A stretch of 64,000 bases of DNA from a virus (IMGVR_UViG_3300021400_002728:101154-165153), one strand, 5' to 3'; counted from the first letter of the stretch, positions 11,554-12,248 are shown. Numbers and translations: made by a program. The notes: generated by a model from the letters alone, not told the origin.

Positions 11554-11676
11554 TAAGGATGGTAGGACTCGAACCTACAATGTACCGGCTCCCAAAGCAT
11601 TTGAAAATGGTTGCTGTCTCAATCACGAAAATGATAACGTCATAAACGGCGCGTCTACCAATTCCGCCACATCCTT
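11554..11676 (-). tRNA. tRNA-Pro(TGG) interrupted at 29/30 by a 48-nt insert (11599-11646)
   Basis: Removing the insert restores CCG|GC-TT TGG GA-GCCGG; acceptor AAGGATG/CATCCTT and T arm intact. Confidence 0.75.
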
Positions 11677-11678
11677 AG

Positions 11679-11802
11679 CGACCTAGGAAGGAATCGAACC
11701 TCCACCTTTTCCGGGACAGGGAAATTTATTTAAGTTAATTGCTGTCTAAATCACAGTGATGATTCTGAAATATAAATATGCTATCCATTACACCACTAGG
11801 CC
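11679..11802 (-). tRNA. tRNA-Asp(GTC) interrupted near 29/30 by a 52-nt insert (11722-11773)
   Basis: Removing the insert gives TTT|CC-CT GTC CC-GGAAA (junction can slide in the T run; C37 atypical); acceptor GGCCTAG/CTAGGTC. Confidence 0.7.
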
Positions 11803-11832
11803 ATATTTTATTTAATTTTTCAAGTTACAAAA

Positions 11833-12127
11833 ACCGATGTGCTATTACGCCAAAGTCTCCATTTTCTGATTGTCTTCGGACACGCTATGTGTTATACATC
11901 AGAATACTCACATCTTGCGCTAGAGTACACCACTCTCTTTCGCCCATCTGTGATGCACCGACTACCAATTAGACTTATTGGAACTTGGTTATTGTTTATG
12001 CCGGCGTACAAAGTACTTATCCTTAATCACAGTGACGGGTTCGCTTGTAGGATCTCTCTACCTTTACTACCCGCTTGACAACGATCCACTCTTTAGAGGA
12101 TAGCTGCTTCTAAGCTAACCTTTCGGT
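11833..12127 (-). ncRNA. 23S rRNA GTPase-associated-centre (H43-H44) mimic with a 237-nt insert
   Basis: ACCGAAAGGTTAGCTTAGAAGCAGCTATCCTCTAAAGAGT-[11851-12087]-GCGTAATAGCACATCGGT. Confidence 0.8.
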
Positions 12128-12134
12128 TTTTAAG

Positions 12135-12248
12135 TTGCAGGAAATGGAATCGAACCATTGTCTCGTCCTATATGTGTGGAAAATAAGATAGCTGTTAAAA
12201 TCACGAAAATGATTCATTTTACGCGCTCTGCCACTAAGCTATCCTGCG
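12135..12248 (-). tRNA. Met(CAT)-like tRNA with C1-A72 mismatch interrupted at 29/30 by a 41-nt insert (12180-12220)
   Basis: Removing the insert restores CGT|CC...GGACG around a 9-nt loop ACA CAT ATA. Confidence 0.6.

What the first reader, a model, noticed from the sequence alone, without database searches (positions are those of the whole stretch)
11554..12248. Three tRNA genes interrupted at the same position (29/30) by short inserts sharing one motif: candidate new intron or grafted-arm class
Seen: in Pro(UGG) (48-nt insert), Asp(GUC) (52 nt) and a Met(CAU)-like tRNA (41 nt), deleting the insert between nt 29 and 30 restores a 5-bp anticodon stem (CCG|GC/GCCGG, UUU|CC/GGAAA, CGU|CC/GGACG). 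All inserts contain AUCAU-N4-GUGAU-U-N3-ACAGC(A/U)A; the Met insert ends pair with each other (AAAAUGA/UUAUUUU). Established: known bacterial tRNA introns are self-splicing group I/II introns of hundreds of nt; short enzyme-removed introns, including non-canonical sites, are archaeal/eukaryal. I see no clear bulge-helix-bulge or recognisable endonuclease here. Inference: either a protein-spliced intron family (RNA ligase, Tpt1 and an RNase H-fold protein are encoded in the window) or a retained protein-binding arm. Uninterrupted Pro, Asp and Met tRNAs also exist, so these copies are free to take a second role.
Basis: partly seen in the sequence, partly recalled or inferred. Interest (0 to 1): 0.93.

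Follow-up and report, generated by a model that had tools for sequence, protein, structure and literature searches.

The report
Ro60-handle inserts in phage tRNAs
Three (in fact four) tRNA genes of a 394-kb rumen phage carry a conserved RNA "handle" in the anticodon stem; across phages this handle marks the partner RNAs of a Ro60-like ring protein, so these are most likely tRNA-shaped Y-RNA analogues and not a new kind of intron.

Summary
Three tRNA-shaped genes (Met-like, Asp, Pro), plus a fourth at 3440-3569, carry 41-65 nt inserts in the 5' strand of the anticodon stem. All share a covarying hairpin (UCAU-loop-GUGA) followed by ACAGC(A/U)A.

"Same position 29/30" holds only loosely. It is unique for Pro and ambiguous for Asp and Met-like. 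In relatives the site ranges from 26/27 to 31/32.

The motif is not a splice signal that I can recognise. It is the signature of RNAs encoded beside a DUF2828/vWA protein, which I show to be a structural homologue of Ro60.
- 77 of 80 such genes in IMG/VR have 1-4 copies just upstream on the same strand, and none elsewhere in those loci.
- 8 of 10 contigs holding insert-tRNAs encode the protein.
- This window encodes it at 20827-22290, flanked by free-standing copies of the handle.

My best reading (0.58) is that these are tRNA-scaffolded Y-RNA analogues with a retained Ro-like binding arm. Protein-mediated splicing (0.25) is not excluded. Excising the insert restores good Pro and Asp anticodon arms, the phage encodes two RNA ligases and Tpt1, and a 307-nt RNA from this very locus is circular in RNA libraries.

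This scan found the same RNA family before on other DNA (39 notes, at least 34 genomes). I found no published description of the handle.

The parts
12135..12248 (-). Met-like tRNA-shaped RNA with a C1:A72 mismatch. The 41-nt insert is at 12180-12220: hairpin 12200-12213, ACAGCUA at 12189-12195. The restored loop has 9 nt.
   Evidence: Rfam tRNA 42.0 bits; sequence; motif
11679..11802 (-). Asp(GUC) tRNA-shaped RNA with G73, G10 and C38. The 52-nt insert is at about 11722-11773; the junction is ambiguous between 26/27 and 29/30.
   Evidence: Rfam tRNA 39.5 bits; sequence; motif at 11739-11754
11554..11676 (-). Pro(UGG) tRNA-shaped RNA with a Leu-type D arm. The 48-nt insert is at 11599-11646 and the junction is unique at 29/30.
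   Evidence: Rfam tRNA 39.0 bits; the orthologue in L009 has anticodon AGG and a compensatory change in the insert's inner helix
3440..3569 (-). Fourth member: a tRNA-shaped RNA with the same handle inserted after position 31. The restored loop is GAGGGAA (A33).
   Evidence: Rfam tRNA 51.3 bits; sequence; motif
20827..22290 (-). Ro60-like protein (DUF2828 + DUF7788 + vWA), the inferred binding partner of the handle.
   Evidence: Pfam; AlphaFold2 model with pLDDT 89.7; the top 13 PDB matches are all Ro60/Rsr/phage Ro60
19255..19328 (-). Free-standing handle RNA: closing helix GUGACAC/GUGUCAC, then ACAGCAA, then a hairpin with a Lys(UUU)-like loop. It starts 4 nt after tRNA-Arg.
22480..23303 (-). 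Four free-standing handle copies just upstream of the Ro60-like gene (motifs at 22550-22565, 22751-22767, 22848-22863, 23286-23303).
   Evidence: weak match to Rfam RF01414 at 23176-23300 (22 bits)
11385..11552 (-). 168-nt RNA closed by an 8-bp 5'/3' helix next to ACAGCAG, with an internal T-arm-like hairpin. This is a YrlA-like layout.
   Evidence: sequence; fold
11827..12133 (-). 307-nt spacer RNA between the Met-like and Asp genes, seen as a circle in RNA libraries.
   Evidence: 337-nt contigs equal to 307 + 30 nt, joining 12133 to 11827 in X12 and X16, with a 308-nt variant in X20; terminal helix
17834..18478 (-). RNA ligase (PF09414) inside the tRNA array; context only.
41007..41549 (-). 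Tpt1/KptA RNA 2'-phosphotransferase; context only.

Best explanation
The inserts are copies of a conserved RNA handle: a 7-bp helix with an invariant UCAU/GUGA core, then 3-6 nt, then single-stranded ACAGCAA. This handle is the recognition module for the phage's Ro60-like ring protein (DUF2828/vWA). In these genes it is grafted as a hairpin arm onto the 5' strand of the anticodon stem of an otherwise complete tRNA body. The arm most likely stays in the mature RNA. If so, the molecules are tRNA-scaffolded Y-RNA analogues that couple the Ro60-like protein to something that recognises tRNA shape or an anticodon arm, in the context of the phage's large RNA-repair and anti-defence gene set.

Shown: the motif, the covarying helix, the genomic coupling of the motif to the protein family, and the Ro60 fold.
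Inferred: direct binding, retention of the arm, and the downstream role.
For: 1. From the RNA side: 8 of 10 IMG/VR contigs with handle-bearing tRNAs encode DUF2828, against 710 of 50,697 phage records overall. In 7 of those 8 the gene lies within about 1 kb downstream on the same strand.
2. From the protein side: 77 of 80 DUF2828 loci carry 1-4 handles within about 1.3 kb upstream on the gene's strand, and none on the other strand or downstream.
3. The protein model (pLDDT 89.7) matches Ro60 structures first, full length, at probability 1.0: Xenopus and human Ro60, D. radiodurans Rsr, and Thermus phage phiLo Ro60.
4. The hairpin is an RNA structure. It is 98.2% paired, with 33 cells changed on both sides against 7.3 in shuffles (0 of 500 shuffles reach this), while the four inner pairs and ACAGC never vary.
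5. The same helix plus ACAGCAA closes free-standing RNAs by their 5' and 3' ends, as in Y RNAs. These flank the Ro60-like gene in this window.
6. Several features fit an arm better than an intron. The insertion site wanders from 26/27 to 31/32. Many restored loops are not decoder-like (A33 or G33, 9 nt, an 8-bp stem, a class-I body with GCU, a GGU/GAU switch between close relatives). Ordinary tRNAs with the same anticodon sit in the same arrays.
7. RNA ligases of three families occur in only 5 of 10 of these contigs, and two contigs rated complete have none.
8. RNA libraries from at least 4 studies hold 40-50% of the sampled 31-mers of 11554-11802, where more than 80% of 31-mers contain insert sequence. 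In X20, coding bins nearby are almost empty.
9. Published context: YrlA Y RNAs carry tRNA-like domains beside Ro60 genes, including in phages (PMC4201824). Bas63 gp130 is Ro60-like, and its authors suggest that some neighbouring tRNA genes are Y RNAs (PMC11482910).
Against: - No binding data exist, and the handle differs from the known Ro60-binding motifs GGUCCGA and GNCGAAN0-1G (PMC4201824).
- The three genes lie 9-10 kb from the Ro60-like gene, not beside it.
- A close relative (G005) keeps all three handle-tRNAs, with a compensatory change in the hairpin, yet has only a C-terminal remnant of the gene.
- Excision restores textbook Pro and Asp anticodon arms with the expected identity nucleotides, and the Pro anticodon changed UGG to AGG within the Pro box.
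- The fourth member and L032 have the insert inside the loop, so the retained form does not present a closed anticodon loop.
- One RNA contig (X4) starts exactly at the first insert nucleotide of the Met-like gene.
Confidence: 0.58

Rival explanations
1. The inserts are true introns removed by proteins. The handle, perhaps held by the Ro60-like ring, marks the precursor. An unidentified endonuclease cuts at the base of the insert. The phage ligases (the Pnkp-like kinase-phosphatase-ligase, or the PF09414 ligase) join the halves, and Tpt1 removes a junction 2'-phosphate.
For: - Deletion restores a 5-bp stem in every case examined, with canonical 7-nt loops for Pro, Asp, His and Val types. The split stem covaries across the insert, for example GUA|CC/GGUAC against AUG|CC/GGCAU.
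- A bulky arm at positions 29-31 should not fit the ribosome's decoding sites (established knowledge of ribosome structure).
- The phage encodes a 733-aa kinase-phosphatase-Rnl1 ligase, a second ligase, Tpt1, a Thg1-like enzyme and RlaP.
- A 307-nt RNA from the same locus is cut out and circularised, so end-joining acts on these transcripts.
- The X4 contig begins at the first insert nucleotide.
Against: - No bulge-helix-bulge is present, and EndA and RtcB are absent from the phage.
- Cut sites have no fixed geometry relative to the insert helices: leaders run 0-5 nt and tails 0-8 nt.
- No spliced or insert-less form turned up in IMG/VR or JGI contigs.
- Ligases are missing from half of the contigs with such tRNAs, including two rated complete.
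- Many members cannot give a normal anticodon loop.
Confidence: 0.25
2. The genes are decaying tRNA copies that a mobile handle element invaded. They have no function of their own beyond supplying extra handle copies.
For: Ordinary tRNAs with the same anticodon exist in the array. Some loops are defective. The handle is found in many unrelated tRNA bodies.
Against: Acceptor, D and T arms stay intact (Rfam 39-51 bits). The split anticodon stem covaries. Orthologues in a relative about 4% diverged keep all arms. No empty-site alleles were found.
Confidence: 0.1
3. The motif acts at the DNA level, as a promoter, operator or homing site inside the tRNA array.
For: It is strand-specific, confined to the array, and often lies between genes.
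Against: Compensatory base changes keep an RNA helix. The helix partner lies upstream in inserts and 40-150 nt downstream in free-standing copies, which only makes sense for RNA. There is no consistent -10 element at a fixed distance (my reading).
Confidence: 0.03

Closest known systems
YrlA-type bacterial and phage Y RNAs bound by Ro60/Rsr (Rfam RF02553; Chen et al. 2014, PMC4201824)
   Same: Small RNAs encoded next to a Ro60-fold protein gene. They combine a protein-binding helix and single-stranded motif with a tRNA-like body. In both, the protein module sits where the anticodon stem is.
   Different: The partner protein belongs to Pfam DUF2828, not TROVE. The motif is ACAGCAA beside a UCAU/GUGA helix, not GNCGAAN0-1G. 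Here the tRNA is not permuted, keeps open acceptor ends and keeps an anticodon loop. RF02553 scores only 14.8 bits against a 69-bit threshold.
Class I RNAs of dictyostelid amoebae (Rfam RF01414; Kjellin et al. 2021, PMC7919456)
   Same: A short stem joining the 5' and 3' ends, followed directly by a conserved unpaired motif. The Rfam consensus reads CUUACAGCAA, the same string as in the free-standing phage copies (for example GCUUACAGCAA).
   Different: The best window match is sub-threshold (22 against 41.5 bits). The tRNA inserts carry the helix as a hairpin, a permuted topology. The published Class I partner is an RRM protein, and the class was reported as unique to Dictyostelia.
Non-canonical protein-spliced tRNA introns of Archaea (review PMC4090602)
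   Same: Short inserts at non-canonical sites in the anticodon stem, whose removal restores the stem.
   Different: No bulge-helix-bulge and no splicing endonuclease. The host is bacterial. The insert carries a conserved protein-partner motif instead.
'Enigmatic' introns of Lak megaphage tRNAs (Devoto et al. 2019, PMC6784885)
   Same: Phage tRNA genes with short, highly conserved, unexplained inserts.
   Different: That paper gives no motif, partner protein or mechanism. I did not test whether the Lak inserts carry the ACAGCAA handle.

Membership tests
Protein-spliced tRNA introns (archaeal/eukaryal type) | Bulge-helix-bulge at the two exon-intron boundaries | tested here: not met
   Inspection of the boundaries in 11 members and folds. 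The insert ends pair bluntly or with variable leaders and tails. There is no 3-4-3 geometry.
Protein-spliced tRNA introns (archaeal/eukaryal type) | Splicing endonuclease (EndA/Sen) available | tested here: not met
   PF01974 is absent from the complete 394-kb phage genome; the control genomes ring. The host genome is unknown.
Protein-spliced tRNA introns (archaeal/eukaryal type) | Ligation pathway (RtcB, or healing and sealing ligase plus Tpt1) | tested here: inconclusive
   No RtcB. A kinase-phosphatase-Rnl1 ligase, a PF09414 ligase and Tpt1 are present. These equally fit RNA repair, and ligases are absent from half of the related contigs.
Protein-spliced tRNA introns (archaeal/eukaryal type) | Spliced product observed | tested here: inconclusive
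   No insert-skipping joint among the 15 joints listed of 77. No spliced sequence in IMG/VR or JGI contigs. These data have little power for 75-nt RNAs.
Self-splicing group I/II introns | Catalytic core of hundreds of nucleotides | tested here: not met
   The inserts are 41-65 nt. No Rfam intron or ribozyme family matches at E up to 10.
Y RNA / YrlA (Ro60 partner RNAs) | Encoded beside a Ro60-fold protein gene | tested here: met
   77 of 80 loci from the protein side and 7 of 8 from the RNA side. In this window the free-standing copies flank the gene, while the three tRNA copies lie 9-10 kb away in the same array.
Y RNA / YrlA (Ro60 partner RNAs) | Known Ro60-binding motif (GGUCCGA or GNCGAAN0-1G) in a 5'/3' stem | tested here: not met
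   The motif here is UCAU/GUGA plus ACAGCAA. The published motifs are taken from PMC4201824.
Y RNA / YrlA (Ro60 partner RNAs) | tRNA-like domain | tested here: met
   Rfam tRNA model, 39-51 bits over the full length.
Y RNA / YrlA (Ro60 partner RNAs) | Match to the family covariance model RF02553 | tested here: not met
   14.8 bits against a gathering score of 69.
Y RNA / YrlA (Ro60 partner RNAs) | Physical binding to the Ro60 protein | not testable with these tools
   Needs EMSA or immunoprecipitation.
Dictyostelid Class I RNA (RF01414) | 6-bp terminal stem plus an 11-nt motif, scoring above the Rfam threshold | tested here: not met
   The best match is 22 bits against 41.5, at 23176-23300. 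The motif string is shared, but membership is not shown.

The most novel reading that the evidence does not exclude
The handle-bearing tRNAs are genuine precursors. The Ro60-like ring recognises the handle and hands the RNA to a cut-and-rejoin pathway (an unknown endonuclease, a phage or host ligase, and Tpt1). This would yield working tRNAs plus a released, possibly circular, handle RNA. It would be the first protein-dependent tRNA splicing system in the bacterial and phage world, and a catalytic-pathway role for a Ro60 relative.
Probability: 0.2. Interest if true: 0.92.

Novelty: new variant of a known kind. Interest (0 to 1): 0.66.

Why it matters
Ro60 and its Y RNAs are a long-studied but poorly understood RNA quality-control particle. 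Phage Ro60-like proteins have just been linked to counter-defence: Bas63 gp130 acts against the Ppl system (PMC11482910). Their RNA partners are unnamed.

A conserved, easily searched handle that marks those partners gives a concrete set of RNAs to test. The handle turns up free-standing and also grafted into real-looking tRNAs. The tRNA-embedded copies raise a sharp question with two interesting answers. Either phages tether a Ro60-like ring to tRNA look-alikes, for example as baits or guides in the fight over tRNA cleavage. Or bacteria-infecting viruses have a protein-based tRNA splicing route.

For annotation, these genes should not be counted as decoding tRNAs, nor as introns, without evidence.

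Tried and rejected
- **RNA contigs.** I laid contigs from four runs on 3400-23399. None of the 15 listed joints skips an insert, but 62 joints were not shown and tRNA-sized RNAs are poorly captured. This says nothing either way on splicing.
- **Insert-less or spliced sequences.** IMG/VR gave 0 hits for Pro and Met-like. JGI contigs gave 0 hits for Asp. Two hits for the Pro anticodon arm turned out to be unrelated long-variable-arm tRNA-like genes.
- **Similar DNA in GenBank phages.** Only the neighbouring ordinary tRNA-Thr matched.
- **PDB sequence searches** with the Ro60-like protein, the ligase and the YkuK-like protein found nothing. Only the fold search was informative.
- **Single-sequence MFE folds** of the four RNAs do not recover cloverleaves; z-scores run from -3.1 to +0.1. 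I did not use them as evidence.
- **ARAGORN's intron mode** forces implausible anticodons and was rejected.
- **A sigma-70 promoter reading of TTGTGA-N17** was rejected, because no consistent -10 element follows.
- **T5 Rad** (10.1101/2023.03.15.532788) is a 189-aa TOPRIM protein, unrelated.
- **Anticodon-loop change in handle-tRNAs against ordinary tRNAs,** window versus L009: 2 of 23 against 1 of 63 positions. The numbers are too small to use.
- **Complex prediction was not used,** because the question concerns RNA-protein binding.

Full report
**What the window is.** The window lies in a complete 394,266-bp virus record with direct terminal repeats and 32% G+C. Its DNA and RNA are found in rumen and other animal-gut metagenomes. 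Between about 3,400 and 24,100, on the minus strand, it carries some 40 tRNA genes and a tmRNA. Interspersed are genes for:
- SmpB
- an HD protein
- a YkuK-type RNase-H-like protein
- a PF09414 RNA ligase
- an HNH-bearing group I intron in tRNA-Leu
- a DUF2828/vWA protein

**The observation.** The Rfam tRNA model aligns three long genes end to end, each with one large insertion in the anticodon arm:
- 12135-12248, 42.0 bits
- 11679-11802, 39.5 bits
- 11554-11676, 39.0 bits

A fourth gene at 3440-3569 (51.3 bits) has the same motif, but inserted after an intact 5' stem strand.

The extended motif occurs only in the tRNA array and only on the minus strand. Four copies lie inside tRNA bodies. Five are free-standing, at 19310, 22550, 22751, 22848 and 23286.

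The junction is unique (29/30) only for Pro. Repeated bases make Asp ambiguous (26/27 to 29/30) and Met-like ambiguous (28/29 or 29/30). The restored Met-like loop has nine bases, and the fourth gene's loop has A33.

**The insert is a structured RNA module found in many phages.** Pattern scans of IMG/VR found the same module inside tRNA-shaped genes of unrelated contigs of 35-330 kb. I aligned 31 distinct copies:
- The hairpin is 98.2% paired.
- Its three outer pairs covary: AU, GC, UA and CG types, with 33 cells changed on both sides against 7.3 in shuffles (0 of 500 shuffles reach this).
- The four inner pairs (U-A, C-G, A-U, U-G) and ACAGC are invariant.

This rules out a DNA-level reading.

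In free-standing copies the same GUGA/UCAU helix is formed between the 5' and 3' ends of a 60-170-nt RNA, with ACAGCAA directly after the 5' strand.

**The insertion site is not fixed.** Across relatives the site that restores the stem is:
- 28/29 in the L003 Pro type and the L017 type
- 29/30 in the window's Pro and the Val(UAC) types
- 30/31 in the L042 Pro type
- 31/32 in L032, L203 and the window's fourth gene
- before an 8-bp stem in the Thr(GGU) type

The two halves of the split stem covary (GUA|CC/GGUAC against AUG|CC/GGCAU), so the stem forms around the insert. Many restored loops are unlike those of decoders:
- A33 or G33
- nine bases
- a class-I body with the Ser anticodon GCU, sitting next to a normal tRNA-Ser(GCU)
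- a GGU to GAU switch between close relatives

**The partner protein.**
- From the RNA side, 8 of 10 contigs with handle-tRNAs encode a DUF2828 protein. In 7 of those 8 the gene lies within about 1 kb downstream on the same strand.
- The family occurs in only 710 of 50,697 GenBank phage records.
- From the protein side, 77 of 80 DUF2828 loci have one to four handles in the 1.3 kb upstream on the gene's strand, and none on the other strand or downstream.
- The window's protein (20827-22290) gave a confident AlphaFold2 model (pLDDT 89.7). Its top 13 PDB matches are all Ro60 proteins, aligned over the full length at probability 1.0. They include D. radiodurans Rsr and the Ro60 of Thermus phage phiLo.

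The layout of small RNAs directly upstream of a Ro60-fold gene is that of Y RNAs (PMC4201824, PMC12135203).

Two papers come close to this reading without describing the handle:
- The PhageMaP preprint found Bas63 gp130 to be Ro60-like, to counter the Ppl defence, and to sit beside tRNA genes "possibly Y RNAs" (PMC11482910).
- A Listeria phage study saw three very abundant unannotated RNAs upstream of its Rsr-like gene (PMC12282133). In the related phage LMTA-34 I find three ACAGCAA handles exactly there, and an RtcB gene downstream.

**Arm or intron?** Five points favour a retained arm:
- The module is a partner-RNA signature, not a splice-site structure.
- The cut sites that would be needed have no constant geometry.
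- There is no bulge-helix-bulge, and no EndA or RtcB in the phage.
- RNA ligases of three families are present in only 5 of 10 related contigs, and in neither of two contigs rated complete.
- Insert-containing 31-mers of the Asp-Pro stretch are present in RNA libraries of at least four studies, and in one of them the neighbouring coding bins are empty.

Five points favour splicing:
- Excision gives textbook Pro and Asp arms. Asp keeps G73, G10 and C38.
- An arm at 29-31 should clash with the ribosome.
- The phage has a kinase-phosphatase-Rnl1 ligase, a second ligase, Tpt1, a Thg1-like enzyme and RlaP.
- One RNA contig starts at the first insert base of the Met-like gene.
- The close relative G005 keeps the three genes although only a stump of its Ro60-like gene remains.

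No insert-less alleles or spliced sequences were found, but those searches have little power. I put the retained arm at about 0.6 and splicing at about 0.25. That the handle belongs to the Ro60-like protein I hold at about 0.85.

**A by-product: a circular RNA.** Between the Met-like and Asp genes lies a 307-nt non-coding stretch (11827-12133).
- In RNA libraries from two studies it assembles as a 337-nt contig. Its two ends overlap by 30 bases and it joins 12133 to 11827.
- That is what a k=31 assembler yields for a circle, or for a tandem duplication. A 308-nt variant with several base differences occurs in the second study.
- Its ends form an 11-bp helix.
- The element is absent from the same spacer in the relative L009, and shared sequence resumes exactly at the circle's 3' end.

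This shows that RNA end-joining acts on transcripts of this locus. That keeps the splicing rival alive.

**Standing.** This scan has met the same RNA family before on other DNA: 39 notes in at least 34 genomes. Those follow-ups reached the same partner-RNA reading. I reached it here independently, before looking those notes up. I found no paper that describes the handle or its insertion into tRNAs.

Noticed in passing
window 11827-12133 (-): A 307-nt spacer RNA appears as a circle in RNA-library contigs of two studies: 337-nt contigs with a 30-nt self-overlap, joint 12133 to 11827, depth 36 against about 3-7 for its neighbours. It is absent from the same spacer in relative L009. Another first-reader note calls it a mimic of the 23S GTPase-associated centre. 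A tandem duplication in the DNA is not excluded.
   Followed up: partly
window 11385-11552 (-): A 168-nt RNA closed by an 8-bp 5'/3' helix next to ACAGCAG, with an internal T-arm-like hairpin (a YrlA-like layout). In L009, which lacks the Ro60-like gene, the handle string is altered.
   Followed up: partly
G000:C1:66369-68570 (L012:1291-3492, -): A 733-aa protein with kinase (AAA_33), metallophosphoesterase and Rnl1-type ligase domains, the architecture of bacterial Pnkp RNA-repair enzymes. No Hen1-like methyltransferase was detected in the neighbouring 352-aa ORF.
   Followed up: partly
window 41007-55344: A cluster of RNA and tRNA enzymes: Tpt1 (41007-41549), Thg1-like (43426-44244), an OB+HD YhaM-like protein (44981-45910), two NADAR proteins, CinA, RlaP (52737-53810) and radical SAM proteins.
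   Followed up: no
window 13126-13197 (-): A tRNA with anticodon UUA, which reads the UAA stop codon. Possible stop-codon recoding or suppression in this phage.
   Followed up: no
window 4549-4622 and 10451-10557 (-): Two more odd tRNA-like genes. ARAGORN reads one with a 2-base anticodon. The other is 107 nt with a 52-nt anticodon region and no ACAGCAA handle.
   Followed up: no
G005:C1:147427-147531 (L208): The 332-kb relative keeps only the last ~35 codons of the Ro60-like gene, with a stop inside. Homology to the window starts at window position 20898. It has no free-standing handles there, yet keeps the three handle-tRNAs.
   Followed up: partly
L205:809-832, L206:175-198: Metagenome tRNA-like genes with a Leu-type D arm, a long variable arm and Pro-box anticodon loops (UUAGGGA, UUUGGGA). 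ARAGORN does not call them.
   Followed up: no
window 25270-28346 (-): The phage encodes a GGDEF diguanylate cyclase and an EAL phosphodiesterase side by side.
   Followed up: no
L207 (Listeria phage LMTA-34 90199-97704): Three ACAGCAA handles with different closing helices lie at 2674-2837, just upstream of the DUF2828 gene. An RtcB gene lies 1.3 kb downstream. A published study reports the orthologous protein inside virions of a related phage (PMC12282133).
   Followed up: partly
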